In this document: in pieces, positions 1,908 through 54,706 of the stretch
Layout of the letters: each line of letters opens with the position of its first letter
Numbering within the stretch: the first letter of the stretch is position 1
Origin: a virus
Lineage: Duplodnaviria; Heunggongvirae; Uroviricota; Caudoviricetes
DNA: 64,000 nt
Direction: 5' to 3' (one strand)
IMG/VR virus record: IMGVR_UViG_3300031998_000037
Notes under the pieces: model-generated
What the model saw: only the letters and a program-made list of their open reading frames with translations
What the model was told of the DNA's origin: nothing
The model's database searches: none
Program-made: the position numbers and the translations under genes

Positions 1908-1946
1908 TATATCCTCACAAATAATATGTAGTGGGATTTTTAAAAA

Positions 1947-1959
1947 GGAACTCAGTTCC
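1947..1959. promoter_or_regulatory. GGAACTCAGTTCC 13-bp palindromic intergenic motif (copy 1), followed by CCAAAAAAAAA and the RBS of the SPFH gene
   Basis: exact palindrome seen; recurs at 16058, 16972, 20740, 20776, 20812 (AGAAC variant) and 54694. Confidence 0.6.
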
Positions 1960-1984
1960 AATTCCAAAAAAAAAGGAGAATACA

Positions 1985-2931: not shown

Positions 2932-3285
2932 ATGAGTAAGTTTATACGTACAGAAACTTATACATATCTGAATGAAGAATATTTTGAAAAGGGCGGCATC
3001 TATTATATCTACAACACTTTTGGCATGGAGTATATCGCTGTATGCACTGGCAAGAAGCCTGATGGTATACATCTTGTAAAAGTTTATAATTTGCCTATAG
3101 AGCAAAAGGACGAGACAGTTATTATACCAGACGATGAGATTATAATGAATGACAGCAATGTTTCATCATTTAAGACCTGTGAGAGAATTGAGCTTAAAGA
3201 AGATACCGACAAGTATGATCGCACAATTTCTTTCTTCTTTAAATTCTCTGCAAAGAAAGACGAGAAAAAGTCTGATGATGAATAA
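2932..3285 (+). CDS. hypothetical protein
   Basis: ORF with RBS AGGAGG. Confidence 0.35.
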   Translation: MSKFIRTETYTYLNEEYFEKGGIYYIYNTFGMEYIAVCTGKKPDGIHLVKVYNLPIEQKDETVIIPDDEIIMNDSNVSSFKTCERIELKEDTDKYDRTISFFFKFSAKKDEKKSDDE

Positions 3286-3884
3286 GAAAGATTGGACAGG
3301 CAATAAGACTTCTGTATTCTCTACATTAGCTGCAAGTAGTCATTCAAAAGATGATAGAGCAAATGACGACTATTATTGTACCCCCCCCCTATGCGGTTGA
3401 GGAACTTCTAAAACGTGAGACATTCAGCACTTATGTTTTAGAGCCTTCCGTTGGCGGAGGGCATATTGCAGAAGTCCTTGAAAGAAACGGTCATAAGATA
3501 CAAGCCTTTGATATTGTAGATCGTGGATATAACAAAACAGAAGTAAGGGACTTCTTAAATGTATCAAAAGAAGATGTCAAGTTTTCCCCTGATATCATCA
3601 CAAATCCTCCATATGCTTTGGCAAAAGAATTTGTTGAACACGCACTTGATATTTCTATGGACAGCACAAAGGTTGCAATGTTTCTTAAAATACAGTTCCT
3701 TGAAAGCAAGAAGCGGTATGAATTATTTAAGAAATATCCACCACGAAAAATATACGTGTTTGTTAACCGCGTTAATTGTGGTAAGAATGGTGTTTTTGGC
3801 AAAGAGTCAAGTGCTGTATGCTATGCATGGTTTGTATGGGTAAAGGGTTATAAAGGCTGTCCACAGGTAGATTGGATAGCATAA
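3275..3884 (+). CDS. phage Dam-family N6-adenine DNA methyltransferase, interrupted by a frameshift at a C9 tract (3381-3389); C8 would give the intact protein
   Basis: N-part 'DDYYCTPP' is in frame 2 and the C-part '...DIITNPPYALAKEF...' in frame 0, joined only across the poly-C; close paralog of the intact ORF 14571-15167. Confidence 0.7.
3381..3389. repeat. poly-C homopolymer (9 nt) inside a methyltransferase gene; candidate slipped-strand phase-variation tract
   Basis: seen in sequence; GC homopolymers this long are otherwise very rare in this AT-rich window. Confidence 0.8.
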
Positions 3885-4318: not shown

Positions 4319-5453
4319 TTGTGATAATGCTGCACAAAAGCCTTTAACCGAATCAGTAAAGCGAACCATAGTTAACTTTATTGATAATGAATTTGGCAAT
4401 CCTTCATCTATATATTCTAAAGGGCGCAACGCTAAACGTGCTCTTGAAGAAGCAAGAAGTCAGATTGCAGAATCAATAGGGGCTGACACAGACGAAATTT
4501 ATTTTACAAGTGGTAGCACCGAGGCAATCAACTGGCTTTATCATTCAACCAACAAACATATTCTGATTTCACCTATAGAGCACAAAGCTATTCTAAAAGG
4601 GAATGAAAATTATGATGGTATCTCTTACGGTTTGGACGTTAAACAAAATGGCGTTATAGATATTGAAAAACTTAAATATCTTTGTAATTGGGTACATGAC
4701 GATGGGGTTGCTATCATAGGTTGGGTAAATAATGAGATCGGTACAATTCAGCCTATAAAAGAAATAGCTAATATTTGCCACGCAAAAGGCGTTGAACTAT
4801 TCGTTGATGCTTCACAAGCTATCGGGCATATACCAATTAATGTGCATGAAATCGGGATGGATTATATGTGCGGTTCATTTCAGAAAATAGGCGGTTTGGC
4901 TGGTAGCGGTTTCCTTTATATAAAAAAAGGCAAAGGGTTCAATCCTATGTTATCTGGCGGATCACAAGAACGCGGCATGAGAGCTGGGACTGAAAACCTT
5001 TTAGGGGTAATGTGTGGTGCAACCGCGATATCCGAAGCAACTAAAAATCTAAGTGATAAAGTCTCCAGACAAAAAGAAATTCAAAGCAAAATTATCTCTG
5101 AACTTCTGAAACTCCCCAAAACACATTTGAATGGCGACTTATGTAATAGAGTTGCAAGCAATGTGAATATATGCTTTGAGGGTATTGAGGCTGAAAGTCT
5201 TGTGCTTCTGCTTGATTTAGATAATATTTGTGTTAGCAGTGGCTCTGCCTGTAACTCAGGTGATGTTAAGCCCAGCCATGTTTTGAAGGCGATAGGTCTT
5301 AGTGATGATAATGCTAAAGCAAGTATACGTATCACCTTTGATGACATGACGGATGATGAAATTGATTATCTTGTAGAGCGAATAAAGGCAAGAGTTAGTC
5401 AGTTAAGAGATATGTCCCCTAAATGGAAGGAGATATTCAATGCAAGTAATTGA
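4308..5453 (+). CDS. cysteine desulfurase (IscS/NifS family, class V aminotransferase)
   Basis: aligns along its whole length with IscS as recalled from memory: 'FTSGSTEAINW', 'NNEIGTIQPI', PLP lysine in 'SFQKIGG', 'SGGSQERGMRAGTEN', catalytic Cys in 'SSGSACNSGDVKPSHVLKAIGL', 'SIRITFDD..EIDYLVERI'. Confidence 0.8.
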   Translation: MQINCDNAAQKPLTESVKRTIVNFIDNEFGNPSSIYSKGRNAKRALEEARSQIAESIGADTDEIYFTSGSTEAINWLYHSTNKHILISPIEHKAILKGNENYDGISYGLDVKQNGVIDIEKLKYLCNWVHDDGVAIIGWVNNEIGTIQPIKEIANICHAKGVELFVDASQAIGHIPINVHEIGMDYMCGSFQKIGGLAGSGFLYIKKGKGFNPMLSGGSQERGMRAGTENLLGVMCGATAISEATKNLSDKVSRQKEIQSKIISELLKLPKTHLNGDLCNRVASNVNICFEGIEAESLVLLLDLDNICVSSGSACNSGDVKPSHVLKAIGLSDDNAKASIRITFDDMTDDEIDYLVERIKARVSQLRDMSPKWKEIFNASN

Positions 5454-5871
5454 AAATAAATATAACTCTGAGTCGCAAAAGGTAAAGTGTGAAGGATGCT
5501 CCAGCACATTTATAATTGATGAGTCAGATTTGAATATAGGCACATACGGCTGCAAGTTCTGGTCTTGTCCATATTGCGGTCAACAAAACTTGATTGACGA
5601 CAGTATTGAACTTACAGAAAGCAACTTTCAATTCCCTCAACACTTTGCAAGTTATAAAAATGGCAAACAGATAAGTAAAGATACTTTGCAAAAATGGGCG
5701 CAAGAAGCTTTATCCTTGCTTGACAAAGATCACAGTTTTGCTCTTCATGCCAGTGGTAATAGTCTTGTGTTTGCCTTTAAATCAGATTATGACGCACATG
5801 AGGCATCTGTGATAGTTTGTGATAACGGCTATTACGAAACCTATGTTAGTTTGCCAGAGGATAGGTTTTAA
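5440..5871 (+). CDS. hypothetical zinc-ribbon protein
   Basis: CEGC...CPYCG motif. Confidence 0.35.
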   Translation: MQVIENKYNSESQKVKCEGCSSTFIIDESDLNIGTYGCKFWSCPYCGQQNLIDDSIELTESNFQFPQHFASYKNGKQISKDTLQKWAQEALSLLDKDHSFALHASGNSLVFAFKSDYDAHEASVIVCDNGYYETYVSLPEDRF

Positions 5872-5971
5872 TACACAAATTCCAGTTTATAATATGGCAA
5901 ACGCCATGTTATATAGGCGTGTGATATTCACACAAAACACAATTTCCATAGAAAGGGTATGGTGATACACA

Positions 5972-6634
5972 ATGAAGAACTATTCTTCTAAAATCCGAAG
6001 TCTCCTCGCAAGAGGGACGAAAGCATTAGCATTAACATCTGTCTTACTCGCTACTGTAAGCTGCTCTCACGGTAAGACGGACACAGACACTTCCAGCAGC
6101 AGAAATGAGGTGACAACGACTTGTACAACTTCTACAACGACATCTACCTCTACAACATCAACAACGTCCTCTACGACAACAAGCACCGAGACAACGACGG
6201 CTGCGACGACGATGCCGACAACAACAATGATGACTGTGCAGGAGAATATTCAAGTGACTGAGTCTGTATATGTTGCTCCTGTTCAAGAGTATATTGAACC
6301 TGTGAACAGCAATCTTCCTATTACTGAGCGTGAAAGGGTTTTACTTTGTAATATTGTTGCAAATGAATATGGCTCAGACTGGGTAAGCGTCTATGACAAA
6401 GCTTGTGTTGTGGCAACTGTTATGAACCGTGTAAATAGCTCGCAATTCCCAAATGATATAGAAAGTGTCCTGACACAACCTCGTCAATTTACTGGCTATT
6501 GGGCAAGCGATAGTTATTATAGCACTGTTACAGACAGTTGCATAGAGGCAGTTGATTATTACTTTGCTCATCAAAATGAATTTGGTAATTACTTATATTT
6601 TGAAGGCGATGGGCGAGTGAATTATTTTCATTAA
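5972..6634 (+). CDS. secreted/lipoprotein cell-wall hydrolase (SleB/Hydrolase_2-like) with a Thr/Ser-rich linker
   Basis: signal peptide with a lipobox-like 'LATVSC', ~60-aa T/S low-complexity stretch, and C-terminal 'VVATVMNRVNSSQFPNDIESVLTQPRQFTGYW' that resembles the SleB family. Confidence 0.5.
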   Translation: MKNYSSKIRSLLARGTKALALTSVLLATVSCSHGKTDTDTSSSRNEVTTTCTTSTTTSTSTTSTTSSTTTSTETTTAATTMPTTTMMTVQENIQVTESVYVAPVQEYIEPVNSNLPITERERVLLCNIVANEYGSDWVSVYDKACVVATVMNRVNSSQFPNDIESVLTQPRQFTGYWASDSYYSTVTDSCIEAVDYYFAHQNEFGNYLYFEGDGRVNYFH

Positions 6635-6680
6635 ACAAAAATCCCCGACTTATGTCGGGGAGAAAGGAACACAAAGATGC

Positions 6681-6899
6681 ATGACAGCTAAACGAATGTA
6701 TTTATGGTCTGTGCATTACAGGGACGAAGTTGAACGCAGCATTGAATACTATAACTACATAAATTTGAAACAACCTGTATGGACAAGACCTTTAACAGAG
6801 ATAGAAAAGAAAGAGATTTTCGGTGGCAATCCGAATTACATAAAGAACATAGGCAGAAATGACGGACACGAATGGAGGCTATTGAATGATAATAATTGA
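6681..6899 (+). CDS. hypothetical small protein
   Basis: ORF. Confidence 0.3.
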   Translation: MTAKRMYLWSVHYRDEVERSIEYYNYINLKQPVWTRPLTEIEKKEIFGGNPNYIKNIGRNDGHEWRLLNDNN

Positions 6900-8517: not shown

Positions 8518-10479
8518 ATGGCAAAAAAACAAACATCTACTATAAACGTTGGTATTACTTTAGATAAAGATTTTATTACCCAATACAATAAACTTCAAGC
8601 TGAGTACGGCACAGACATAGCAAGACTTAATGGCTTCGGTGACGATCAGCTTTCATATACAGATTTTATTGATAATTTTATTGATGATGATACAATTGCA
8701 GACGTAAGTATTGACGGCAATAGTAATGTCAGAAGAAAAGATATCGTGACACTGATAACAGAAATGCCAAAACCACACAGAAAGCTTCTTGCCTATAATA
8801 AGATTTACTATGAGTTCAAGAAAAAGTATGGCTTTAAGGCAGCAAATACGTGGCTTGAATATGAATGGTCTGGCAAGCTTTATCTCCATGACGCTGACAC
8901 TTCTTCTATGAAGCCTTACTGTTTTGCCTATGACCTTAAAGACCTTGCTGAAAGAGGGTTGTATTTCTTAGGCATAAACAATACTCAGCCAGCACAGCAC
9001 CTTACTACATTTGTTGATTTTGTAAAGGAGTTTATCTCTTTTGCAAGCAACAGAAGTAGCGGTGCGGTAGGCTTACCAAATATAATCCCGTATATGTTCT
9101 ATTATTGGCGCAAAGATGTCAAGTCTGATTATCTCGGAGTAAGAACAAGCGGCAATGAAAAGAAGTATGCTATTCAGAATTTCCAGAGATTTATCTACGC
9201 TGTCAATCAGCCGTGTGTACGTGATGGTCAGCAGTCAGCCTTTACCAATACAACTGTCTTTGATCGTCCTTACTTTGAAGCTCTTTTCGGCGGAACTGAG
9301 TTTCCTGACGGATCGTTTATGATTGATGCCGAAGAAGAAATAATTGAGTTTCAGAAATGGTATATGGAGACAATGGCTGAAATACGCAGCGAGAATATGT
9401 TTACATTCCCCGTATCAACTATTTCTCTTATTCGCAAGAACGGTAAGTTTGAGGATGAGGAATTTGCACATTGGGCAATTCGCCACAATATGAAGTGGTG
9501 CGATAGCAATATGTTTATTGACAAGGACGTAACTTCACTGTCAAATTGTTGTCGCCTTAAATCTCAGATTGATAACCTCGGCTACTTTAACAGTATCGGT
9601 GGAACAGCTTTAAAGGTTGGTTCAGTCAAAGTTGGCACAATCAATCTGGCTCGTATTGCACTTGATACTGAAAATGAAACTGAGTATCTTACAGAACTTA
9701 AAAAGCGTACCCTTATTGACTTAAAGGTACTTGATATAATCAGAGGCATTATAAAGAGAAATGTTGACAAGGGGCTTCTGCCTAACTTTACTTATGGGCT
9801 AATTGACTTTAAACATTTATATAATACAGTGGGCTTTACTGGTGTATATGAGAGCATGAAAAAGTTTGGCTATATCTCACGCGACTTATTCAATAATGTT
9901 TCCTATACAGAACAAGCCGAAAAGTTTGGTAAGAAGATATTCGATACCATACGCAAGACCGCCGATAAGTTCCTTGAAGATAACACTTGCGATTATCTTG
10001 TTTCACTTGAACAATCACCTGTAGAACAAGCGGCAAGCAAACTGATTCGTAAGGACAAGTTCTTCTATCCTGAGTCTGACATCTACGATTTGCCCGTATA
10101 TGGTAATCAGTTTATGCCACTCGGCATCAAGTCAATCTTACAAGAGAGAATAAGGGTTCAGGCTTTATTTGATGGTTTCTGTTCTGGCGGCAGCATACTT
10201 CATGCCAACATTGAAACGCCTTTTGACAGTTATGAAAAGGCATTGGCAATGACAGAGTATGTCGCAGATCAGGGGGTAACATACTTTGCATGGAACACAA
10301 AGATTTCTGCCTGTGAACATAATCACGCATTTCATGGCAAGATTTGCCCAAAGTGTGGTAAGCCTGTAAAAACAGAGTATACCCGTGTAGTCGGTTTTTA
10401 TACGCCGATTGAAAGCTGGTCAAGTGACCGTAAGGCGGAATATAAATTAAGACAATGGGAGGTAGTGAATGAAACTTAA
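8518..10479 (+). CDS. nrdD: anaerobic ribonucleoside-triphosphate reductase (class III RNR)
   Basis: 653 aa; C-terminal Zn-ribbon 'CPKCGKP' followed by the glycyl-radical motif 'TRVVGFYTP'. Confidence 0.75.
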   Translation: MAKKQTSTINVGITLDKDFITQYNKLQAEYGTDIARLNGFGDDQLSYTDFIDNFIDDDTIADVSIDGNSNVRRKDIVTLITEMPKPHRKLLAYNKIYYEFKKKYGFKAANTWLEYEWSGKLYLHDADTSSMKPYCFAYDLKDLAERGLYFLGINNTQPAQHLTTFVDFVKEFISFASNRSSGAVGLPNIIPYMFYYWRKDVKSDYLGVRTSGNEKKYAIQNFQRFIYAVNQPCVRDGQQSAFTNTTVFDRPYFEALFGGTEFPDGSFMIDAEEEIIEFQKWYMETMAEIRSENMFTFPVSTISLIRKNGKFEDEEFAHWAIRHNMKWCDSNMFIDKDVTSLSNCCRLKSQIDNLGYFNSIGGTALKVGSVKVGTINLARIALDTENETEYLTELKKRTLIDLKVLDIIRGIIKRNVDKGLLPNFTYGLIDFKHLYNTVGFTGVYESMKKFGYISRDLFNNVSYTEQAEKFGKKIFDTIRKTADKFLEDNTCDYLVSLEQSPVEQAASKLIRKDKFFYPESDIYDLPVYGNQFMPLGIKSILQERIRVQALFDGFCSGGSILHANIETPFDSYEKALAMTEYVADQGVTYFAWNTKISACEHNHAFHGKICPKCGKPVKTEYTRVVGFYTPIESWSSDRKAEYKLRQWEVVNET

Positions 10480-10942
10480 AGGTTTGATTGACGAGGATTT
10501 TGTGAATTATAAAAAGCCCTCTATGTTTATATCAACCTATACTTGTTCATTCAAATGTTGCGAGGAATGTGGTCAAGCGGTATGCCAAAACTTACCGCTT
10601 GTATCACAGCCTACAATTGAGGTTGATAATGCAGATTTGGCTGTGCGCTACCTTAATAATGATATAACCCATGCTGTTGTTATCGGCGGACTTGAACCAT
10701 TTGACGACTTTGCAGATTTAAACCGTTTTGTCACTTGTTTTCGTTCTTTCTGCAATGACGATATAGTGATCTATACTGGCTACAATGAAGATGAAATAAA
10801 GCATTATGTTGATAAGCTTAGATGGGTTCACAACCTTTACATTAAATATGGCAGATATATCCCTAATCAGCAGCCGCATTATGATGCCGCCCTCGGTGTT
10901 AAGCTTGCAAGCGACAACCAGAAAGGAGTTAAGGTATGCTGA
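10469..10942 (+). CDS. nrdG: anaerobic RNR activating protein (radical SAM)
   Basis: 157 aa directly downstream of nrdD, overlapping it; Cys cluster 'CSFKCCEEC' and 'GGLEP' motif. Confidence 0.6.
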   Translation: MKLKGLIDEDFVNYKKPSMFISTYTCSFKCCEECGQAVCQNLPLVSQPTIEVDNADLAVRYLNNDITHAVVIGGLEPFDDFADLNRFVTCFRSFCNDDIVIYTGYNEDEIKHYVDKLRWVHNLYIKYGRYIPNQQPHYDAALGVKLASDNQKGVKVC

Positions 10943-11330: not shown

Positions 11331-11570
11331 ATGAGCTATTACTGCGAAGTTTGCGGTCATATAGGTGGTCACGCTTACGGCTGCCCAGAAGCACCATCGC
11401 CCAAACCTGTAACATATTGTACCTACTGCGATGAGCCTTTATATATCGGTGATGAAGCTTATCAAGCTGGTAATGATATTTATTGTGCTCAGTGCTGCGG
11501 TAGGATTGAAATAGAAGAGCCTGAAAGAGACTGGGATTTTGAGATAGATAAAAGGAGAGAGAATGAGTAA
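11331..11570 (+). CDS. small zinc-binding protein (multiple CxxC)
   Basis: CEVCGH, CTYCDE, CAQCCG. Confidence 0.35.
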   Translation: MSYYCEVCGHIGGHAYGCPEAPSPKPVTYCTYCDEPLYIGDEAYQAGNDIYCAQCCGRIEIEEPERDWDFEIDKRRENE

Positions 11571-12515
11571 CGAAAATCTAAGAATGGCACGAAAGATTAA
11601 GAATGATGAGTTCTATAGCCGCTATGAAGATATAGAAAAAGAGCTTGTCCATTACAAAGATCAGCTACGCGGCAAGATTGTTTATTGCAACTGTGATATT
11701 CCTGAGAGCAACTTTGTCAAGTTCTTGAATGATGTCAAAGACGAATGGGGCATTCAAGATGTATGGCATACCTCGCTTGACGAGGGTATAAGCTTTGATA
11801 GTGATTATGCGAAAGACTTACTAAGCAAATGTGATGTGGTCATAACAAATCCTCCATTTTCAATCACAAGAGAAAGGTTCGTTCCTATGCTTGAAGAAAG
11901 CGGCAAACAGTTTCTCTTTATAGGCAATCTAAATATGGCAACTATGCGAGAAATATTTCCGCTGATCCGTGACGGCAAACTATGGACAGGCTATACGCAC
12001 CCTAAAGAGTTCCTACAGCCAGATGGCACATACAAAAAGTTTGGTAATTGTTTATGGTGGACTAATATGCCTGTAGAAAAAGAGTTTAGGCTTGACACAT
12101 CAAAAAAGTATTATGGTAATGAAAGTAAATATCCTCACTATGATAATTATGATGCCATTAATGTTGATAGAGTTGCTGATATTCCTTCAGATTATTCAGG
12201 CGTGATTGGCGTACCCGTTACGTTCATTGAACATTATACCCCCACCCCGACAAGATAGGAGGGGACTTCGGCTCAGTATTGTCGGATTTAGAAAGGGAGC
12301 AGACGGCAAAGACCTTCACGCCAACGGAAGATATTATTACGGCAGATACCTTATCGTTATTGGATCATAGATGTGATCTATATAACGAAGTAGGTAGGGG
12401 GGGGTACGACATACATACTTCCATCGCTTGCTCATTAAGAGTCGTTGACGCATTGAACTGTCCAAGTTTAAATAATGAAAAGATATTTAAAAGATTAATG
12501 ATAAGGAGATTATAA
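11563..12515 (+). CDS. N6-adenine DNA methyltransferase (NPPF motif), split by a frameshift at a C5AC4 tract (12239-12248); also carries an in-frame G8 tract (12397-12404)
   Basis: 'CDVVITNPPFS' motif IV. The frame-1 ORF stops at 12258, but frame 0 is open from 12231 to 12515, so a +1 C would fuse them to ~317 aa. Confidence 0.55.
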
Positions 12516-12517
12516 GA

Positions 12518-13044
12518 TTGAGCTTTTCAGAGTCGATAAAGACAAGCTTAGGAGGAGATGAATATTATACTCCTTCTAATGCGGTAGAAATGATTTTACC
12601 TGTGCTGCGCAAGCATAATTTTTCAAAAGTCTGGTGTCCATTTGATACTGCCGAAAGTAATTTTGTTGTAAAACTCAGCAAAGAATTTGAAGTAGTATAC
12701 GGTCATATTTATACTGGACAAGATTTCTTTGAATATGATACCCCCCCGAAGGTGTGGAATGTGTAGTAAGCAATCCGCCATTTAGTAAAAGAAATGATAT
12801 ATTTAAGAGGCTGTTTGAATGGGATATACCTTTTGCTCTTATTATGAATATGAACGGCATCTTTGATAGCAAAGAAAGATATGATTTGTTTAAAGATAAA
12901 CAGGTTGAGTTCTTTATACCAAAGGGTAGAATGAAATTCTTTACGCCTGATGGTGTTACAAAAAACTCGCCTAATTTTCAGAGTATTTATATTTGCAGTA
13001 AATTATTAGATAAACAACTTGAATTTTCTGAAAGTGAATTTTAA
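12518..13044 (+). CDS. phage Dam-family N6-adenine DNA methyltransferase, interrupted at a C7 tract (12741-12747); C8 would restore the frame
   Basis: N-part 'EYYTPSNAVE...YDTPP' (frame 2) and C-part 'ECVVSNPPFSKRNDIF' (frame 1) meet only across the poly-C. Confidence 0.65.
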
Positions 13045-13769
13045 AGGAGATGTAATGAGTAATATACAACTTTTTCAAGGGGACTGCTTGGAACTTATGA
13101 AAGATATACCAGACAAAAGTGTGGATTTAATTTTGACAGATTTACCTTACGGAACAACAGCTTGTAAGTGGGACAGCATAATTCCATTTGATTTACTATG
13201 GGGGGGGGTACGACCGTATCATAAAAGACGATGGTTGCATTGCTTTGTTTGGTAGCGAACCATTTTCTACGATGTTAAGATATAGCAATCTGAAGCATTT
13301 TAAATATGATTGGATATGGGAGAAAGAACAGGGTGCTAATTTTATGCTTTGTAAATATCAGCCCTATAAAGTACATGAAGTCATTTCTATCTTTGGCAAT
13401 AAGAAGATGCGTTATTATCCGCAAATGACCGCTGGCAAACCTTATATATCAGGCAAGGGTACAAGTGGTGATATTACAAACAATGTACCAAAGATACAGA
13501 CAGTTAATTCGGGTACAAGATATCCGCGAAGCATTCAAAAATTTAACACTCAAAAAAATCACTCGGTTCATCCAACTCAGAAGCCAGTGCCACTACTTGA
13601 ATACCTTATTAAGACCTATACAATTGAGGGTGACACAGTATTAGATAGTTGCATGGGCAGTGGCAGCACGGGCGTAGCTGCCGTCAATACAAATCGCAAC
13701 TTTATTGGCATGGAACTTGATGAGAAATATTTTCAGATTGCACAAACCAGAATTAAGGAGGCAACATAA
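13019..13769 (+). CDS. beta-class N6A/N4C DNA methyltransferase, interrupted at a G9 tract (13200-13208); G8 would restore the frame
   Basis: 'LILTDLPYG' motif IV first, then 'HPTQKP', then 'CMGSGSTG' motif I at the C-terminus. N-part 'FDLLWGG' is in frame 2 and C-part 'GGGYDRIIKDDG' in frame 0. Confidence 0.7.
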
Positions 13770-14570: not shown

Positions 14571-15167
14571 ATGGGCTTAACCGCAGCGAAGCTTGCTGGC
14601 AGTGATCCGACAAGAGGCAGAATGAAGAACGATTATTATGCTACCCCTCCCATTGCGACTGAACTTCTTTTGAAAGAAGTGAAACTATATGATGATACTA
14701 TTTTAGAACCAGCAGCAGGTGAAGGTCATATTGTTAAAGTGCTGAAAGAATTTTACCCTTATAATGAGATAACAGCTAATGATTTAGTTTACCGCAGTAG
14801 TCGTATAGGCATTGATGTGAACGGCGGCATAGATTTCCTTACATATGAACCACACCGCAAATTTGATACTATCATTACAAACCCACCTTTTAATCAGGCA
14901 AAAGAGTTTATTGAGAAAGCATTGACGCTTGCAAATCATTACGTCATTATATTTGCCAAGCTTCAATTTCTGGAGACTGTTGAACGCCGCAAGCTGTTTG
15001 ACGAATATCCACCTAAGTATGTTTATGTACATAGCCGTCGTGTTAGCCCGTATATAAATGGTGATCCTGTAGATGAAAAGGGTAAGCCGTGGGCAAGTCC
15101 TATGGCGTTTGCTTGGTTTGTGTGGGAGATAGATTATGAAGGAGAGACAACATTAAGATGGTTATAA
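14571..15167 (+). CDS. phage Dam-family N6-adenine DNA methyltransferase (intact)
   Basis: 'DYYATPP' and 'TIITNPPFNQAKEF'; paralog of the 3275-3884 gene. Confidence 0.7.
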   Translation: MGLTAAKLAGSDPTRGRMKNDYYATPPIATELLLKEVKLYDDTILEPAAGEGHIVKVLKEFYPYNEITANDLVYRSSRIGIDVNGGIDFLTYEPHRKFDTIITNPPFNQAKEFIEKALTLANHYVIIFAKLQFLETVERRKLFDEYPPKYVYVHSRRVSPYINGDPVDEKGKPWASPMAFAWFVWEIDYEGETTLRWL

Positions 15168-16045: not shown

Positions 16046-16057
16046 AATTTTGGTCTG

Positions 16058-16070
16058 GGAACTCAGTTCC
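16058..16070. promoter_or_regulatory. GGAACTCAGTTCC palindromic motif (copy 2), between dut and the HNH gene
   Basis: exact match, followed by TTTTCCAAAAAAA. Confidence 0.6.
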
Positions 16071-16111
16071 TTTTCCAAAAAAATGATATAGGAGGGATAT
16101 GTAAAAACAAA

Positions 16112-16699: not shown

Positions 16700-16971
16700 A
16701 GTTTCGCAAAAGGTTCTCCAAATTTCCTCAAATATGAATTTGGTGCAACTTTGGTGCAACTCTTGACAAACCGCTTTCCCCGTACTATAATATACATAAG
16801 GTCACAGGTTTGTCGGACTTCTGTGACTGTCAAGCCACTTGCAAATGTAGTAACCAACTGCGTTTGCATAAAGGAACCCCAAGAGATCACGGCTCTTGGG
16901 GTTTTATCTATAACTCATAATAATACAAAAGTCAACTAATTTATTAGCCATAGCTTTCATTTTTTTGGCTT

Positions 16972-16984
16972 AGGAACTCAGTTC
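16972..16984. promoter_or_regulatory. GGAACTCAGTTCC palindromic motif (copy 3), at the convergent junction between the + module and rep
   Basis: exact match, flanked by TTTTTTT and AATTCAAAAATTTT. Confidence 0.6.
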
Positions 16985-16988
16985 CAAT

Positions 16989-18062
16989 TCAAAAATTTTC
17001 TCTTTGTTTATCACGTTCAGCCTTTAACATAGCCCTAAAATAACTGTAACGGTTAGCGATATTTTGCTGTTCAGATATAGCATTAAAGTGAGTATATTGT
17101 TCCTGTAAATAATGATACCTTGCAAACCCAATGCCAAGAGGATGTTCAGGCATATCCGTAGAAAATACAATTGCAAGCAGACTTTCCATTTCTTTTACTG
17201 AAAATTCATTATTACAAGCACCTGAGAAAAAGTCAAGTTCAACATCTTGTGTCTCTATTTCTTCTTTAATCTTGTCAACATCAATTAAATCTGAAAATCC
17301 CTCAAAGATAGGAATTTGTTTTTGAGCTGGTTCATTTTTAGTGATAGTAAACACAATAGATATCCACCTACCACCTGCACCTGTCTTGCCGCGCTCATAG
17401 GTATAGCTAATGTCTGTAAGTTCCTTTAAAGCCTTTTGACAGCTATCGAGTACATACTTTTTAAATAAAGACCAACCATTTTTATTTGAATATTCAGTTT
17501 CGGCAATACCGAGCAATTCTCTAAGTTCTTTTACAGGTATCTCTCTCTTCCCTATATTCTCGTATTGTTTTAAAATTTCATACATTCTAATTTGATTTGC
17601 TGATTTAAGGATCAGTGCATTCCAAAGTTCGTACTTAAAATATCTCTCTTTAAAATCAAACATTAAAGGCAATGCTTTATCGTGGGCATCTATCTGAACA
17701 TACCATTCGCCGTCCTCATTCTTATCAACTTCACATTCTTTAAAAAGCTGAAATCCAGAATATCCGCCACTCTCTTTTGGTATATTGACAACCTTACAAA
17801 GTAAGCTATTAGTGCTTGATTTAAGTTGCTGAATATTCATTCTACTAAACCCCATGATCTTCTGGAAGTCAGACAGTGGGAATCGAACAATTCTTGTTGA
17901 CTCATCTCTGGGGTTTATCTTAGATAGATAAATCGAAAAAAAGCGTAACTCTTGTAAGGATAGATTATTGGCTCTAATCTCGTTAAGGATATTTCTTTTT
18001 TCTACTATAGCTCCCTCATAAATAGTAGACATATATATCACCTCAATATTATTATAACACAC
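16989..18062 (-). CDS. rep: plasmid-type replication initiator (RepA_N-like)
   Basis: 357 aa whose N-terminal region resembles Firmicute theta-plasmid RepA_N; iterons lie immediately upstream. Confidence 0.6.
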   Translation of the reverse strand: MCYNNIEVIYMSTIYEGAIVEKRNILNEIRANNLSLQELRFFSIYLSKINPRDESTRIVRFPLSDFQKIMGFSRMNIQQLKSSTNSLLCKVVNIPKESGGYSGFQLFKECEVDKNEDGEWYVQIDAHDKALPLMFDFKERYFKYELWNALILKSANQIRMYEILKQYENIGKREIPVKELRELLGIAETEYSNKNGWSLFKKYVLDSCQKALKELTDISYTYERGKTGAGGRWISIVFTITKNEPAQKQIPIFEGFSDLIDVDKIKEEIETQDVELDFFSGACNNEFSVKEMESLLAIVFSTDMPEHPLGIGFARYHYLQEQYTHFNAISEQQNIANRYSYFRAMLKAERDKQRENF

Positions 18063-18063
18063 A

Positions 18064-18215
18064 TTCTATAGATTGTCAATGCTATCTATAGTATTATGCA
18101 ATGAAATCTATAGAATCGTGCAATACAATCTATAGTATCTTGCAATGAAATCTATAGAATTGTGCAATACAATCTATAGAATTGTGCAATACAATCTATA
18201 GAATCGATTCCGCAA
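18064..18215. repeat. iteron array: ~7 tandem 22-bp repeats (consensus AATCTATAGAATYGTGCAATAC)
   Basis: counted by eye at 22-bp periodicity, directly upstream of rep; 2 further copies at 18411-18448. Confidence 0.8.
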
Positions 18216-18410
18216 AGGTGCTATTTTAGGTCGTTTACGATAACCGAAAATATATATAAAATAAATAAAATACTTCTAAAACATCTTTCAAACTATCATG
18301 GAGCAAAAACTGATATTAATTTAAGACTTAAAGAAATAAAATTGGCAAAACAACCAAAACATAAATATAAAATTCATTATCAAACGAATTATAAAGTACA
18401 ATTCAATCAT
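18216..18410. other. AT-rich spacer between iteron groups (putative DNA unwinding element/origin)
   Basis: extreme AT content between the two iteron sets. Confidence 0.5.
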
Positions 18411-18448
18411 CTATAGAATTGTGCAATCAAATCTATAGAATTGAAAAT
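18411..18448. repeat. two additional iterons (ATCTATAGAATTG...)
   Basis: same repeat family as 18064-18215. Confidence 0.7.
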
Positions 18449-18652
18449 TAATGTCCGTAATTTAGAAAATCAATGTCCGTAATTAAAACTTTATGTTAAA
18501 ATTAAATGGCATTATTTGATGACTAAATTTGTCTTTTGCAGATAAATGTCCTATTTTATTATACGCAAAATAGGCAAGAAAAACACTTTGCAGAAATCTG
18601 TCCTATTTAGAAAATCAATGTCCGTAATTAAGAAAATTTATGTCCGTAATTA
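18447..18652. repeat. parS-like repeats: 4 copies of ATGTCCGTAATTA plus 2 degenerate TGTCCTATTT copies, downstream of parB
   Basis: copies at 18447, 18469, 18617 and 18639; the pairs are spaced 22 bp apart. Confidence 0.6.
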
Positions 18653-18664
18653 ATCTTGTTTAAC

Positions 18665-19867
18665 TTACGAGCAATGATTATTCCTATAACTATCCATCAA
18701 TTCCTGAATAGTTTTAAGTTCCTCAGCAGGGTTCATATCCAGCAATCTTTTGATTGCGGTATCAACGGCTTGAACTTCCTTGATAATCTTTTTGCTTTGA
18801 GCGATCTTGCCAGACTTATCCTTCTGAGCATCGTCAAGTCCCTTTTCGGCAGAGAAGATAGTATTCGTAAATATCTTCTTTACCTCACTATTTTGCTTTT
18901 GAGTTTTGAGATCAATGTCGCGGTCAAGCTGTTCAAGAGCTGCATTGTACTTAGCAACACTCTTTTCAATACTTGCCTTACGGGATTCAAGCTCAGGCGA
19001 TTGTTCTATATCAAGCTCCTTGTTGATATTTGCAAGCTCCTCATTTGCTTGTAAAAGCCTTCCATTATAATACATACGCGAGGTTTTATCTTTTGAAAGA
19101 GAAGTGTTTGTCTTTGAAATAATATTCTTAGCCTGTTTTGCAAAAGCGAGTGTGTGCTCGATAGCATATTTCTTAGTCTCAGGATCAGCGTTGTCCGCAG
19201 CCTTTAGAATATCATTGGCATAGTTCTGATATTCTTCTGGGAGCTGCGCAAGTGAAGCAGCCGTGTTGATATCAATAGCATCCGCATAGAGCAATTCCTT
19301 TAAAGGATTGATAAGCTCAGACGTAATGGCGATAAGCTTATTAGCCTGACGTTCACTGACATTAAAAGCCTGTGAAACATACTCTTTAAATTTTTGAGCC
19401 GCCTCTCGTTCAGCGGTTTCATCAAACTGCTTTATCTTAGCGAGAAAGCCTTCAATGATTTGAACCTTTTCTTCAATGCTATATTCTCTTGTTTCACTAT
19501 TGGCAAAGAAAAGCATTTTGAGAATTTCGAGCTGAGAAAGATTGCTTCTTACAGTCGCCTTAATCTTATCGCGTCCGAGGTACTTGACAGCCTTTGTGCG
19601 GCGTTCTCCAGATATGAGCAAGTATTTCGTAGGCTCTATCTTTGCAACCACAATATTATGCAGCAAGCCGTTCTCTTTGATATTCTCAGCAAGTTCTGCA
19701 ATGCCCTCGTCAGAGTCGCCCATATTGAAAATGTTATCCTGATTAAAAACGATTTGATCTATGGGGATAATATCAGTTGTCTCGATAGACTCCTGTTCCT
19801 TTTTGACGCTATCAGCAAGCTCATTAAAGCGGCTCAACGCCTTGTCGGTGTTTAACTTCTTAGCCAT
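18665..19867 (-). CDS. parB: ParB-family partition protein
   Basis: N-terminal ParB/Srx-like box ending in 'GERRTKA'; long helical C-terminus; translationally coupled to parA. Confidence 0.7.
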   Translation of the reverse strand: MAKKLNTDKALSRFNELADSVKKEQESIETTDIIPIDQIVFNQDNIFNMGDSDEGIAELAENIKENGLLHNIVVAKIEPTKYLLISGERRTKAVKYLGRDKIKATVRSNLSQLEILKMLFFANSETREYSIEEKVQIIEGFLAKIKQFDETAEREAAQKFKEYVSQAFNVSERQANKLIAITSELINPLKELLYADAIDINTAASLAQLPEEYQNYANDILKAADNADPETKKYAIEHTLAFAKQAKNIISKTNTSLSKDKTSRMYYNGRLLQANEELANINKELDIEQSPELESRKASIEKSVAKYNAALEQLDRDIDLKTQKQNSEVKKIFTNTIFSAEKGLDDAQKDKSGKIAQSKKIIKEVQAVDTAIKRLLDMNPAEELKTIQELMDSYRNNHCS

Positions 19868-20664
19868 TAATTAACGCCCCCTAAAATGATATTTTCAAGC
19901 TCCTCAGCGACAGCCAGATAATCAGCCGTGACTTTTTCATTCTTGGCATAATTTATCAATGGGTTGTGATCCGTAAGGCTCTTCTCTACAATGGTCGTCT
20001 TTCTGATCTCGGTATTAAAGAAATGGTATGATGTAAGATTAGCCTTGAATTGTTCAAGGTAAAAGTTCTGAGCTGCCGTGTTCTCCTTCTTTGTAAAAAG
20101 CAGCCCAGCGATTTTGAGATTTGGGTTGACATATTGCTGAATGTTTGTGATAAATTCATTCATGGCGAAGATACTGTCAATGCCGTACTCAGTCGCCTCG
20201 CAAGGCAGCACGGTATAGTTACTTGCTGTGAGGGCGTTTGTGGTTAAATTATTACGTGCAGGTGGGCAGTCGATAAAAACATATTCATATTCATCCTGTA
20301 TCTCTGTAAGCTTATTCTTTAAAATAAACTCTCTTGCTATTGGCAAAGCTGATAATTCAGTATCAGCCTTATCCAGATTGACGTTAGACGGCAGCAAATC
20401 AAGCCCGTCAATGTCAGTACCTATGGTAGCTTTACGGACGCTTAAATCGCCACATATGACATTGTAGACGCTTACCTCGTCTTTGCTGAGAAACTTTCCG
20501 AGGTAAGTTGTGGCATTTGCTTGCGGATCAAGGTCAACAAGTAGCACCTTTTTGTTTTTAATTTTAGCAAATATTGCAGCAAGGTTTACACTCGCCGTGG
20601 TTTTGCCAGCACCACCTTTACGGTTCAATAAAGAAATCGTAATCATTAATTTTGCTCCTTTCAC
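19867..20664 (-). CDS. parA: ParA/Soj-family partition ATPase
   Basis: deviant Walker A 'NRKGGAGKTT', 'VLLVDLDPQ'. Confidence 0.85.
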   Translation of the reverse strand: MKGAKLMITISLLNRKGGAGKTTASVNLAAIFAKIKNKKVLLVDLDPQANATTYLGKFLSKDEVSVYNVICGDLSVRKATIGTDIDGLDLLPSNVNLDKADTELSALPIAREFILKNKLTEIQDEYEYVFIDCPPARNNLTTNALTASNYTVLPCEATEYGIDSIFAMNEFITNIQQYVNPNLKIAGLLFTKKENTAAQNFYLEQFKANLTSYHFFNTEIRKTTIVEKSLTDHNPLINYAKNEKVTADYLAVAEELENIILGGVN

Positions 20665-20739
20665 TGTTTGAGTGTTTGACTGTTTGCTTCTTTCATTATA
20701 TCACACTTTATTTTAAAATGCAAGAGTTTTTTTGAAAAA

Positions 20740-20824
20740 GGAACTCAGTTCCTAAGCCAAAATTTTTTTGAAAAAGGAACTCAGTTCCCAGAGCAAAATT
20801 TTTTTGAGAAAAGAACTCAGTTCC
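20740..20824. promoter_or_regulatory. three tandem copies of the palindromic motif (GGAACTCAGTTCC x2, AGAACTCAGTTCC x1), each between T- and A-runs; upstream of parAB and downstream of the lysis genes
   Basis: copies at 20740, 20776 and 20812, ~36 bp apart. Confidence 0.65.
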
Positions 20825-20880
20825 TAAGCCAAAAAAATAGGGTACAGCAAGTCCATAATAAGACCTGTTGTACCCTAAGT

Positions 20881-39528: not shown

Positions 39529-40149
39529 TCATTTATAAGCTTTTCCATTAAAGAAATCATCGGCATTAATTTTGATACCGAGTTTATTGTTTTTATTAAA
39601 ATCTGCTATGCCGCGTTCGACAGCATGAATACCTTCAAAGTATGTCAAACGATATACACTTCTACCAATCATCGAAGCAAGGTTAGGGGACTCCCATCCA
39701 AGTTCCATCATCAAAGGAACAAAAGTCTCATGCTTTCCCTTTATAGGAATCCAACCTTCGGTGTATTCGTCAGCCCAATATACATTTGTAAGATTAGGAT
39801 GCATAGAAAGGTCGTTATTAAAAACCACCCCTATGCGTAAAGTATTTCCAACAACCCGAATAGCTGCAATATCCTCTGCAAATAAAGCACCCTGAAATCT
39901 ATATGTACGATCATAGACTTTAGGATTATAGCTCTTATAATACTCATCTATATATTTCTGAATGCAGTCATAAAGCCTTCGGGCTTCGTTTGCCATTGTT
40001 TCAGCAAGCGTTTCACCGTTTGAAAGTTTAACCCTCTTCAGGGCTATCTTGCTTAGTTGTTCTCTTAGACTTTTTACCATTTTTATCACCGCCCTTATTC
40101 TTAGCGATGTTCTGGTCAATAACCTCCTTAACAAACGCCTTCTGGTCAA
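39529..40149 (-). CDS. tail assembly chaperone T-extension, presumably made as a G-T fusion by -1 frameshift
   Basis: overlaps the 3' 122 nt of the upstream ORF in the -1 frame; classic position before the TMP. Confidence 0.55.
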   Translation of the reverse strand: MTRRRLLRRLLTRTSLRIRAVIKMVKSLREQLSKIALKRVKLSNGETLAETMANEARRLYDCIQKYIDEYYKSYNPKVYDRTYRFQGALFAEDIAAIRVVGNTLRIGVVFNNDLSMHPNLTNVYWADEYTEGWIPIKGKHETFVPLMMELGWESPNLASMIGRSVYRLTYFEGIHAVERGIADFNKNNKLGIKINADDFFNGKAYK

Positions 40150-40630
40150 CCTTACTCAAAGCATCAAAAATTTCTTTAAGCTCATTAAAGTTACCTGAAT
40201 TACCAACCTTGATTATATCCGACAAATCAGAACATAGATTGTCAAATGCTGTAGGTCTTGTGGATATAACATATTCAACCTGTTTGTCTATGGCAAGATC
40301 AATCTCACCCCAAAGAGGAGACTTAGTTACCTCACGGTAAATATCCGCGTACCAGTTACCGCATTGAGTTGCAACAAATATATCTGCAATTTTATCTTCC
40401 TCAACCTCTATATCAGTCAGGTACTTTAAGATAGCAAAACGACTTGCAATCTCCCTGTTTTCAGCACGATACTCGCTACCCTGAAAGCACGATTTTGCGA
40501 CTGTCTGTACTATATTACCAAAAGTATCAATGTCAATACAAAGTTTTATTTCAACAGGCACTCCATTAATTCTTTTTGTCATAGACTTTATAGACGGATT
40601 TCTTTCAGTGATTTCGCTAAATGTACTCAT
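40028..40630 (-). CDS. tail assembly chaperone (G-like)
   Basis: 200 aa directly upstream of, and overlapping, the T ORF; A-rich candidate slip sites near its 3' end, none a perfect X_XXY_YYZ heptamer. Confidence 0.55.
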   Translation of the reverse strand: MSTFSEITERNPSIKSMTKRINGVPVEIKLCIDIDTFGNIVQTVAKSCFQGSEYRAENREIASRFAILKYLTDIEVEEDKIADIFVATQCGNWYADIYREVTKSPLWGEIDLAIDKQVEYVISTRPTAFDNLCSDLSDIIKVGNSGNFNELKEIFDALSKVDQKAFVKEVIDQNIAKNKGGDKNGKKSKRTTKQDSPEEG

Positions 40631-54616: not shown

Positions 54617-54693
54617 AGTAGGAGGAAATAAAAAAGTAAATGTGCAGAGTTTAAGGGAAGTTTATTAATTCCATCCCTTAAAATTTTGCGAAA

Positions 54694-54706
54694 GGAACTG
54701 AGTTCC
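54694..54706. promoter_or_regulatory. GGAACTGAGTTCC palindromic motif (reverse-orientation copy) followed by AATTCAAAAAAAA, upstream of the GT2-terminase operon
   Basis: exact reverse complement of the other copies. Confidence 0.6.

What the first reader, a model, noticed from the sequence alone, without database searches (positions are those of the whole stretch)
13200..13208. G9 tract splits the beta-class MTase 13019-13769; G8 would be ON
'TDLPYG...IIPFDLLWGG' is in frame 2 and 'GGGYDRIIKDDGCIALFGSEPF...HPTQKP...CMGSGSTG' in frame 0. Removing one G gives 'LLWGGYDRII', a canonical contiguous beta-class N6A/N4C MTase.
Basis: seen in the sequence. Interest (0 to 1): 0.75.

Follow-up and report, generated by a model that had tools for sequence, protein, structure and literature searches.

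The report
Switchable DNA methylase genes on phage-plasmid
A run of nine G's breaks a DNA-methylase gene on a virus that also replicates as a plasmid, and related viruses carry 7, 8 or 9 G's at the same spot while the protein stays strongly conserved, so this looks like a reversible on/off switch (one of four in neighbouring methylase genes) rather than a dead gene or a sequencing error.

Summary
G9 at 13200-13208 splits a beta-class N6A/N4C DNA methyltransferase gene (true start ATG 13055, stop 13769). G8 or G11 restores a 237-aa protein, and a natural G8 allele with exactly that protein exists.

The tract is not chance. The window has only four G/C runs of 6 or more (C9, G8, C7, G9). Three lie inside small orphan methylase genes and one lies between two of them.

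Independent metagenome strains carry G7 (4), G8 (2), G9 (3) or an interrupted GGGAGGGG/TGGAGGGG (2). Apart from the tract, the gene has no other stop or indel in any strain aligned over its full length at 83% nucleotide identity or more. dN/dS is 0.02-0.03 at synonymous divergence above 1, even between OFF alleles. The tract uses GGG, the rarest Gly codon (6.7%), where the wider family has W-E-Q-Y.

Methylases A, B and D show the same tract polymorphism.

The element is a roughly 100-kb phage-plasmid (Rep3 with 22-bp iterons, ParAB, and phage head, tail and terminase genes), probably with an anaerobic Firmicutes host.

Best reading: slipped-strand contingency loci that toggle methylases. Switching within a population was not observed, because no reads were available.

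Verdict: a new variant of a known kind, of moderate to high interest.

The parts
13200..13208 (+). G9 homopolymer, the switch in methylase C. G8 or G11 is ON; G7, G9 and G10 are OFF.
   Evidence: Relatives carry G7, G8, G9, GGGAGGGG or TGGAGGGG at the homologous position.
13055..13769 (+). Methylase C, a beta-class N6A/N4C DNA methyltransferase gene (237 aa when in frame). In the window it is split into an N-terminal fragment (13055-13255) and a C-terminal ORF (13188-13769).
   Evidence: PF01555 E 6e-29. phrog_67 'DNA methyltransferase' E 3e-78. PDB relatives DpnA, CcrM, RsrI and MboIIA. AAGGAG ribosome-binding site before ATG 13055. dN/dS 0.02-0.03.
12741..12747 (+). C7 homopolymer in methylase B. 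C8 or C5 is ON; C7 and C9 are OFF.
   Evidence: Relatives: C8 in L087 and L168 and in the more distant L170 and L172 (with a 175-aa ORF called in L087, L168 and L170), and C9 in L083 and L084.
12518..13044 (+). Methylase B, a small gamma-type (NPPF) DNA methyltransferase of 175 aa when in frame. In the window it is split into 82-aa and 96-aa ORFs.
   Evidence: phrog_799 'DNA methyltransferase' E 1e-27. Weak PF13651 hit. dN/dS 0.03-0.07, and the only indels are at the C tract.
12397..12404 (+). G8 homopolymer in the spacer between the methylase A stop (12370) and the methylase B start (12518). Its role is unknown; it may lie in a promoter or 5' UTR.
   Evidence: Relatives have G9 (L084), G8 with the preceding A lost (L168, L170) or G4 (L087). 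No consensus promoter overlaps it.
12238..12248 (+). ACCCCCACCCC (C5-A-C4), the frameshift site that truncates methylase A at 231 aa in the window.
   Evidence: Relatives: C4AC4 (L087, 268 aa, ON), C4AC7 (L084, 269 aa, ON) and C10 (L170, OFF).
11563..12370 (+). Methylase A, an EcoRI-methylase-family (NPPF) DNA methyltransferase. Its canonical C-terminus (RLSIVGFRKGADGKDL...IVIGS) is out of frame in the window.
   Evidence: PF13651 E 2e-63. Alternative frames are compared.
3381..3389 (+). C9 homopolymer in methylase D. C8 is ON.
   Evidence: L084 has C8 and a called 202-aa ORF.
3275..3884 (+). Methylase D, a small gamma-type (DYYxTPP...NPPY) DNA methyltransferase of 202 aa when in frame. In the window it is a 41-aa N-terminal fragment plus a 177-aa ORF starting at 3351.
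   Evidence: phrog_799 E 1e-64 over residues 4-201 of the repaired protein. It is 39% identical to methylase E across the tract position.
14571..15167 (+). Methylase E, a paralogue of D with no homopolymer tract, intact in the window.
16989..20834 (-). Plasmid maintenance module: the Rep3 initiator, 22-bp iterons (18061-18204 and 18404-18443), ParB, ParA, and three 36-bp repeats that carry a GGAACTCAGTTCC palindrome. This is context showing that the element is a phage-plasmid.
   Evidence: Pfam calls. Tandem repeats. Portal, terminase and other phage genes elsewhere in the window.

Best explanation
The G9 run is a hypermutable simple-sequence tract (a contingency locus) inside a functional orphan beta-class DNA methyltransferase gene of a roughly 100-kb phage-plasmid.

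Mechanism. Slipped-strand mispairing during replication adds or removes a G. G8 (or G11) gives the full 237-aa enzyme. G7, G9 and G10 terminate translation 3-17 codons after the tract. The window's strain is in an OFF (+1) state.

Three neighbouring methylase genes carry equivalent C tracts: A (C5AC4), B (C7) and D (C9). All are also OFF here, and a fourth G tract sits between A and B. The element can therefore produce progeny with different combinations of DNA methylation.

Inferred purpose. This is bet-hedging. Methylation protects the element's DNA from host restriction enzymes of matching specificity, but it exposes the DNA to methylation-dependent (Type IV) nucleases and may carry other costs. 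In the plasmid state it could also alter host gene expression.

Shown: the tract, the frame logic, the natural ON and OFF alleles, the selection on the ORF and on the tract, and the phage-plasmid context.

Inferred: the slippage rate, reversibility within a population, enzyme activity and specificity, and the selective agent.
For: 1. Non-random tracts. The only four G/C runs of 6 or more in 64 kb are 7-9 long. Expected numbers are 0.009 for G of 9 or more and 0.026 for C of 9 or more. Three of the four lie inside methylase coding sequence, which is 5.1% of the window (P = 5e-4).

2. Frame logic. G8 or G11 restores a full PF01555 methylase.

3. Allele series at the same site, verified at DNA level:
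- G9: the window strain, L169 and L172.
- G8 (ON): L083 and L089.
- G7: L084, L168, L170/L171 and L007.
- Interrupted: GGGAGGGG in L087 and TGGAGGGG in L088.
See; the corresponding proteins are.

4. Between the window and L084, across the roughly 10 kb of coding sequence from methylase D to the dUTPase gene, the frame-changing indels are at the methylase tracts. The few others lie in a locally divergent stretch near window 5000-5900, and the A7/A6 difference lies downstream of the dUTPase gene.

5. Purifying selection. dN/dS is 0.017-0.029 at dS 1.0-2.1 between lineages that are all OFF in their assemblies (W-L170, W-L172, L170-L172). Once the tract is normalised, there is no other stop or indel in the 714 nt in any strain aligned over its full length at 83% nucleotide identity or more. 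Methylase B behaves the same way (dN/dS 0.03-0.07).

6. Selection for the tract itself. GGG is the rarest Gly codon (6.7%). None of 46 Gly-Gly dicodons in 20 long ORFs is GGGGGG. The wider family has TGG GAA CAA TAT (W-E-Q-Y) at this site.

7. Not a generic homopolymer artefact. The contig name has the k141_ form that I recall from MEGAHIT short-read assemblies. The same G9 was recovered in four assemblies. A8/T8 runs inside ORFs do not break frames.

8. Precedent. Poly-G contingency tracts occur in Campylobacter phages (Sorensen 2021, cited in PMC12823448). An A9 tract in the T2 agt DNA-modification gene toggles sensitivity to TgvAB versus McrA/BC (bioRxiv 10.1101/2025.10.21.683753).
Against: - No read-level data. 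Heterogeneity and reversibility within a population were not observed.
- The window's strain showed the same G9, C7, G8 and C5AC4 in all four assemblies, so there is no hint of a mixed population at consensus level.
- The strains compared differ by 1-7% or more in sequence, so the tract changes cannot be timed against substitutions.
- Seven of nine tract-bearing alleles are OFF, and all four tract-bearing methylases are OFF in the window. This is also what early decay at mutational hot spots would look like in a single strain.
- Methylase activity, target motif and any link to restriction systems are untested.
- The host is uncertain.
Confidence: 0.75

Rival explanations
1. Pseudogene: the methylase genes are decaying in this strain. 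The homopolymers are simply the places where inactivating indels occur most easily, and there is no adaptive switching.
For: All four tract-bearing methylases are out of frame in the window. Seven of nine tract alleles of methylase C are OFF. The same OFF state was seen in every assembly of this strain.
Against: dN/dS is 0.02-0.03 across dS above 1 between OFF lineages. There is no second lesion in any allele aligned over its full length at 83% nucleotide identity or more. ON alleles exist in nature. The tract is kept as GGG-GGG, the rarest codon, in lineages with saturated synonymous divergence. A gene that was permanently off would not stay this clean.
Confidence: 0.12
2. Sequencing or assembly error: the true sequence is G8 and the extra G is a homopolymer miscall.
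For: Homopolymers are error-prone on some platforms. The difference is a single base.
Against: Contig names point to short-read assembly (my reading of k141_ as MEGAHIT, and Logan contigs). G9 was reproduced in four assemblies from at least two runs, with 0 mismatches over 7.6-20 kb. A8/T8 runs inside ORFs are in frame. Other strains give G7 or G8 reproducibly; L170 and L171 both have G7. An error would not create the long tracts themselves.
Confidence: 0.05
3. Programmed recoding: the gene is always out of frame, and the full-length enzyme is made by ribosomal frameshifting or transcriptional slippage on the G run.
For: Long homopolymers can promote RNA-polymerase slippage (established for A/T runs; my own knowledge). 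Some leaky expression from OFF alleles is plausible.
Against: Programmed frameshifts keep a fixed out-of-frame arrangement. Here relatives are -1 (G7), in frame (G8) and +1 (G9), and some have lost the tract while staying in frame. I looked for no stimulatory element.
Confidence: 0.05

Closest known systems
Phase-variable DNA methyltransferases of bacterial R-M systems: 'phasevarions' (Type III mod, Type I hsdS/hsdM) and the poly-G Type IIG cj0031 of Campylobacter jejuni (PMC4889913; reviews PMC12707154, PMC13076061)
   Same: A simple-sequence repeat inside the methylase ORF. Slipped-strand gain or loss shifts the frame ON/OFF. Several independently switching loci can sit in one genome.
   Different: Here the genes are small orphan Type II-like methylases (one beta-class, three gamma-type) with no restriction partner nearby. 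They sit on a phage-plasmid, not a chromosome, and the setting is environmental and anaerobic, not a host-adapted pathogen. Control of a regulon is untested.
Poly-G contingency tracts in Campylobacter Fletchervirus phages (Sorensen et al. 2021, Cell Rep 35:109214; cited in PMC12823448, not read here)
   Same: Hypermutable poly-G tracts carried by a phage genome that create phenotypically mixed progeny.
   Different: As I recall, those tracts are in receptor-binding-protein genes and alter host recognition. Here they are in DNA-modification genes. The phage and host lineages are unrelated.
The T2/T4 agt and rIIA contingency loci (Gomez, Barrick & Waters, bioRxiv 10.1101/2025.10.21.683753)
   Same: A homopolymer inside a phage DNA-modification gene (agt, A9) gives reversible null alleles. 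Those alleles trade sensitivity to one restriction system (TgvAB) for sensitivity to another (McrA/BC). This is the same logic proposed here.
   Different: The tracts there are A runs in an AT-rich lytic phage, where such runs are common by composition, and the modification is glucosylation of hmC. Here the tracts are compositionally improbable G/C runs built from the rarest codons. They sit in four methylases of a temperate phage-plasmid. The evidence is comparative, not experimental.
Constitutive orphan methylases of phages and prophages used for anti-restriction or host reprogramming (for example Dam-like PamA of S. aureus prophage; PMC13076061)
   Same: Phage-borne orphan methylases, often several per genome. 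Relatives here also carry tandem methylase arrays.
   Different: Those are not known to be switched by sequence repeats.

Membership tests
SSR-mediated contingency (phase-variable) locus | A homopolymer or short repeat, long enough to slip (at least about 7 for G/C), inside the coding sequence or promoter | tested here: met
   G9 at 13200-13208 lies inside the ORF.
SSR-mediated contingency (phase-variable) locus | A change in repeat number toggles between a full-length and a truncated product | tested here: met
   In-silico G7 to G11 series. A natural G8 allele gives the 237-aa protein.
SSR-mediated contingency (phase-variable) locus | Repeat number differs among closely related genomes while the flanks are conserved | tested here: met
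   G7, G8 and G9 occur in strains with 97-99% identical flanks, and also in lineages 72-86% identical.
SSR-mediated contingency (phase-variable) locus | The gene is otherwise maintained by selection and is not a decaying pseudogene | tested here: met
   dN/dS 0.02-0.03. No other stops or indels in strains aligned over the full length at 83% nucleotide identity or more.
SSR-mediated contingency (phase-variable) locus | High-frequency, reversible switching within a clonal population | not testable with these tools
   No reads or cultures were available. All assemblies of the window's strain show G9.
Beta-class N6-adenine/N4-cytosine DNA methyltransferase (PF01555) | Full-length match to the family profile, with the catalytic motif IV placed before the SAM-binding motif I | tested here: met
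   PF01555 profile positions 1-220 of 221, E 6e-29. The order is DLPY (motif IV, residues 29-32) and then CMGSGSTG (motif I, residues 192-199). PDB hits are DpnA, CcrM, RsrI and MboIIA.
Beta-class N6-adenine/N4-cytosine DNA methyltransferase (PF01555) | Canonical (D/S)PPY catalytic tetrapeptide, and demonstrated methyl transfer | tested here: inconclusive
   The motif is DLPY rather than DPPY. It is conserved in all close homologues. Activity and base specificity cannot be tested here.
Phasevarion (a phase-variable R-M methylase that controls a regulon) | The methylase belongs to a Type I or Type III R-M system (adjacent res or hsdR/hsdS) | tested here: not met
   The neighbours are other small methylases, an NT5C nucleotidase, a dUTPase, an HNH protein and NrdDG. 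No restriction subunit is present.
Phasevarion (a phase-variable R-M methylase that controls a regulon) | ON/OFF state changes the expression of multiple genes | not testable with these tools
   This needs transcriptomes or proteomes of ON and OFF clones.
Phage contingency loci | The tract lies in a phage genome | tested here: met
   Portal (phrog_2739, E 8e-95), large terminase, a 2007-aa ORF that I take to be the tape measure (from its size and position, not searched), and other phage families lie in the same window. Rep3, iterons and ParAB make the element a phage-plasmid.
Programmed frameshift or transcriptional-slippage gene | The same out-of-frame arrangement is conserved across relatives | tested here: not met
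   Relatives are -1, 0 and +1, or lack the tract.

The most novel reading that the evidence does not exclude
A temperate phage-plasmid carries a virus-borne combinatorial epigenetic switchboard. Four orphan DNA methylases each have their own G/C slippage tract, and a fifth tract lies in an intergenic spacer. Every burst or plasmid lineage therefore contains up to 16 methylation types. This lets the element hedge between classical restriction, which needs methylation ON, and methylation-dependent defence, which needs it OFF. As a resident plasmid it could also impose phase-variable methylation on its host, making it a mobile phasevarion.
Probability: 0.4. Interest if true: 0.8.

Novelty: new variant of a known kind. 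Interest (0 to 1): 0.62.

Why it matters
Phase-variable methylases are textbook for a handful of host-adapted bacterial pathogens. Repeat-driven contingency loci in phages have only just been recognised: receptor-binding genes in Campylobacter phages, and A runs in T-even phages.

This locus would extend the idea in two directions. The first is orphan methylases carried by a phage-plasmid. The second is an environmental, anaerobic, probably Firmicutes setting.

Several independently switching genes sit side by side, and natural ON, OFF and locked alleles are already in hand. That makes a concrete question testable: do viruses hedge their epigenetic 'passport' against the mix of methylation-blocked and methylation-dependent defences they meet?

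There is also a practical point for annotation. Split methylase ORFs in viral contigs should not be discarded as pseudogenes or errors.

Tried and rejected
- Megablast of the methylase cluster against 50,697 GenBank phages: no match.
- Exact-flank pattern with a variable gap against IMG/VR: no match. The closest viral relative is 79% identical at protein level.
It gave only more distant family members and other tract-bearing methylases.
- Promoter and terminator consensus scan: nothing informative about the intergenic G8 tract.
- Look-up of the 66-aa N-terminal fragment: it returned only the contig already in hand, so there is no extra sample count for G9.
- Genome scan with the portal protein: two MAG contigs with conflicting labels. 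One is a 122-kb contig in a Eubacteriales MAG and the other an 8-kb contig in a Bacteroidota MAG. Host assignment therefore stays tentative.
- The 78-aa ORF that reads through the intergenic G8 (12279-12515) as a real gene: rejected. A 5-nt deletion in L087 and frame changes in L168 and L170 break it.
- Literature searches: no report of repeat-switched orphan methylases on phages or phage-plasmids. Absence from this library is not proof.

Full report
**Observation**

Window positions 13200-13208 are nine G's. The frame opening at ATG 13055 follows an AAGGAG ribosome-binding site. It reads MSNIQLFQGDCLELMKDIPDKSVDLILTDLPYGTTACKWDSIIPFDLLWGG and then stops after 15 out-of-frame codons, at 13253-13255. 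A second frame carries GGYDRIIKDDGCIALFGSEPF...HPTQKP...CMGSGSTG to the stop at 13767-13769.

With G8 or G11 the two parts fuse into a 237-aa protein. That protein:
- matches PF01555 (N6_N4_Mtase) over profile positions 1-220 of 221 (E 6e-29);
- matches phrog_67 'DNA methyltransferase' (E 3e-78);
- matches the solved beta-class enzymes DpnA, CcrM, M.RsrI and M.MboIIA.

The likelier start is 13055 rather than the TTG at 13019.

**More than chance**

The window is 37.7% G+C. Expected numbers of runs are 0.009 for G of 9 or more and 0.026 for C of 9 or more. About 1.6 G runs and 3.2 C runs of 6 or more are expected.

Observed: only four G/C runs of 6 or more, and all are long:
- C9 at 3381-3389;
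- G8 at 12397-12404;
- C7 at 12741-12747;
- G9 at 13200-13208.

Three sit inside small DNA-methylase genes and the fourth sits in the spacer between two of them. Methylase coding sequence is 5.1% of the window, so three of four falling inside it has P = 5e-4.

A8/T8 runs that lie inside ORFs (the terminase start, and the 56.3-57.5 kb gene) are read through in frame. There is no general homopolymer problem.

**The other tracts**

- Methylase B (12518-13044, NPPF, phrog_799 E 1e-27) is split by C7. C8 gives 175 aa.
- Methylase D (3275-3884, DYYxTPP...NPPY, phrog_799 E 1e-64) is split by C9. C8 gives 202 aa. The repaired protein aligns with its tract-free paralogue E (14571-15167) straight across the tract position.
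- Methylase A (11563-12370, PF13651 E 2e-63) is truncated by a +1 shift at ACCCCCACCCC (12238-12248). Its canonical C-terminus lies in the next frame.

In the window, four of the five methylases are out of frame.

**What the element is**

A 99,751-bp ENA contig (ERZ27257204 k141_4489812) matches the window with 0 mismatches over 20.6 kb. The only difference is one 22-bp repeat copy.

It encodes:
- a Rep3 initiator preceded by 6.6 copies of 22-bp iterons, plus ParB and ParA;
- portal, large terminase, a 2007-aa ORF that I take to be the tape measure (from size and position, not searched), and other phage families;
- anaerobic ribonucleotide reductase NrdD and a likely activase.

This is a phage-plasmid.

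The nearest portal and Rep relatives in cultured collections are Firmicutes phages and plasmids at about 30% identity. An 87%-identical portal lies on a 122-kb contig binned in a Eubacteriales MAG. The host is therefore probably an anaerobic member of the Bacillota, but this is tentative.

**Comparative evidence for the G tract**

The 90%-identity protein cluster around the C-terminal ORF contains products of 237 aa (full length), 193 aa (MIYYGGGYD..., the G9 reading) and 189 aa (MGGYD..., the G7 reading).

Fetching the contigs and aligning the DNA gives this allele series at the same site:

| Allele | State | Where found |
|---|---|---|
| G9 | OFF | window strain (four assemblies: ERZ27257204, SRR9008936, SRR9008937, JGI 3300028914, all 100% identical); L169; L172 |
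| G8 | ON | L083 (protein P0124, identical to the predicted repair apart from one V/I); L089 |
| G7 | OFF | L084; L168; L170/L171; the IMG/VR contig L007 (75% protein identity) |
| GGGAGGGG | ON, interrupted | L087 |
| TGGAGGGG | ON, interrupted | L088 |

In more distant members of the family the site is TGG GAA CAA TAT (W-E-Q-Y) with no run. The tract is a derived feature of this lineage.

**Not a pseudogene**

After setting the tract to G8, every allele aligned over its full length at 83% nucleotide identity or more is a clean 714-nt ORF. It has no other stop or indel.

Nei-Gojobori dN/dS for methylase C:

| Pair | dN/dS | dS |
|---|---|---|
| Window (G9) vs L170 (G7) | 0.025 | 1.1 |
| Window (G9) vs L172 (G9) | 0.017 | 2.1 |
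| L170 (G7) vs L172 (G9) | 0.029 | 1.0 |

All three of these lineages are OFF in their assemblies.

Methylase B gives dN/dS of 0.03-0.07, with indels only at its C tract.

Between the window and L084, the frame-changing indels across the roughly 10 kb from methylase D to the dUTPase gene are at the methylase tracts. The few others lie in a locally divergent stretch.

The tract itself appears to be selected. GGG is the rarest Gly codon in 20 long ORFs of the window (6.7%) and CCC is the rarest Pro codon (10.4%). None of 46 Gly-Gly dicodons is GGGGGG. Yet GGG-GGG is retained in lineages whose synonymous sites are saturated.

**The other tracts vary too**

| Site | Window | Relatives |
|---|---|---|
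| Methylase B | C7 | C8, ON (L087, L168, L170, L172); C9 (L083, L084) |
| Methylase D | C9 | C8, ON (L084) |
| Methylase A | C5AC4 | C4AC4, ON (L087); C4AC7, ON (L084); C10, OFF (L170) |
| Intergenic G tract | G8 | G9 (L084); G8 without the preceding A (L168, L170); G4 (L087) |

Different strains therefore carry different ON/OFF combinations:
- L087: A, B and C all ON.
- L084: A and D ON, B and C OFF.
- L083: C ON, B OFF.
- L168 and L170: B ON, C OFF.
- Window: A, B, C and D all OFF.

**Mechanism proposed**

Slipped-strand mispairing at G/C runs toggles each methylase independently. This yields mixed methylation types among progeny or plasmid lineages.

The functional rationale is an inference from established R-M biology and from the T2 agt precedent. 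In T2, an A9 tract in a DNA-modification gene gives reversible null alleles that escape the modification-dependent nuclease TgvAB but become sensitive to McrA/BC (bioRxiv 10.1101/2025.10.21.683753). By analogy:
- ON protects against cognate restriction enzymes;
- OFF avoids methylation-dependent defence or other costs.

A regulatory, phasevarion-like effect on the host in the plasmid state is possible but untested.

**Rivals**

- Sequencing error. Unlikely. The contig names point to short-read assemblies. G9 was reproduced in four assemblies. Frames are broken only at G/C tracts. Alleles are reproducible in other strains.
- Plain pseudogenisation. Contradicted by the selection data and by the ON alleles. 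It cannot be excluded for this one strain.
- Programmed recoding. It does not fit the mixture of -1, 0 and +1 alleles.

**What is missing**

- No reads could be examined, so switching and reversibility within a population are not shown.
- The compared strains differ by 1% or more, so rates cannot be inferred.
- Enzyme activity, motif, host and selective agent are untested.

**Comparison with known systems**

The mechanism is that of classical SSR phase variation of methylases (Type III mod phasevarions, poly-G cj0031; PMC4889913, PMC12707154, PMC13076061). However, these genes are orphan methylases with no restriction partner, so the locus is not a phasevarion in the strict sense.

Phage contingency loci have been described for receptor-binding genes in Campylobacter phages (Sorensen 2021, cited in PMC12823448) and for A runs in T-even and other phages (the 2025 preprint).

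I found no report of G/C-tract-switched orphan methylases on a phage or phage-plasmid.

I rate it a new variant of a known kind, with interest 0.62.

Noticed in passing
window 12741-12747, 3381-3389, 12238-12248: Three further methylase genes (B, D, A) are each broken at a C run (C7, C9, C5AC4). Relatives carry in-frame lengths (C8, C8, and C4AC4 or C4AC7) or other out-of-frame lengths (C9; C10 in L170).
   Followed up: yes
window 12397-12410 and 13201-13214: The intergenic G8 tract and the G9 tract share the 14-mer GGGGGGGGTACGAC. The intergenic tract also varies among strains (G9, G8, G4). Its role is unknown: promoter or 5' UTR of methylase B, or a remnant of a duplication.
   Followed up: partly
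window 18061-18204 and 18404-18443: 22-bp iterons (6.6 and 1.9 copies) lie upstream of the Rep3 gene. The ENA contig L081 differs from the window only by one 22-bp copy. This is a classic iteron plasmid origin inside a phage genome.
   Followed up: partly
window 1942-1970, 16053-16081, 16968-16996, 54689-54717 and 20727-20834: The palindrome GGAACTnAGTTCC, followed by AATTC(C) and an A run, occurs four times on the + strand (0.15 expected). It also occurs inside three 36-bp tandem repeats upstream of parA. It may be a parS site or an operator.
   Followed up: partly
window 8518-10942: Anaerobic ribonucleotide reductase NrdD (653 aa) and a Fer4_12 activase-like gene. Together with the dUTPase, the NT5C nucleotidase and a kinase, they point to an anaerobic host and a large nucleotide-metabolism module.
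   Followed up: no
window 39529-40630 (- strand): Two overlapping ORFs (206 and 200 aa) lie immediately upstream of the 2007-aa ORF that I take to be the tape measure. This is the usual position of the tail-assembly-chaperone programmed frameshift.
   Followed up: no
L091 10169-10175, L148 1015-1021, L117 1613-1620, L061 5988-5994, L062 3365-3371: Other phage methylases of the same broad family carry G7 or G8 runs. Some are in frame at a different Gly-Gly position (KPNGGV, KSGGV), one is in a different methylase (ESGGGT), and some sit at the ribosome-binding site. Many relatives have tandem arrays of two or three paralogous methylases.
   Followed up: partly
L007 (IMGVR_UViG_3300045988_175669, 64.9 kb), 5941-6713: A quite different phage contig (34% G+C, with three Dam-like methylases nearby) has the homologous methylase split by G7 at the same codon position. 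The tract has therefore persisted across 25% protein divergence and different genomic neighbourhoods.
   Followed up: partly
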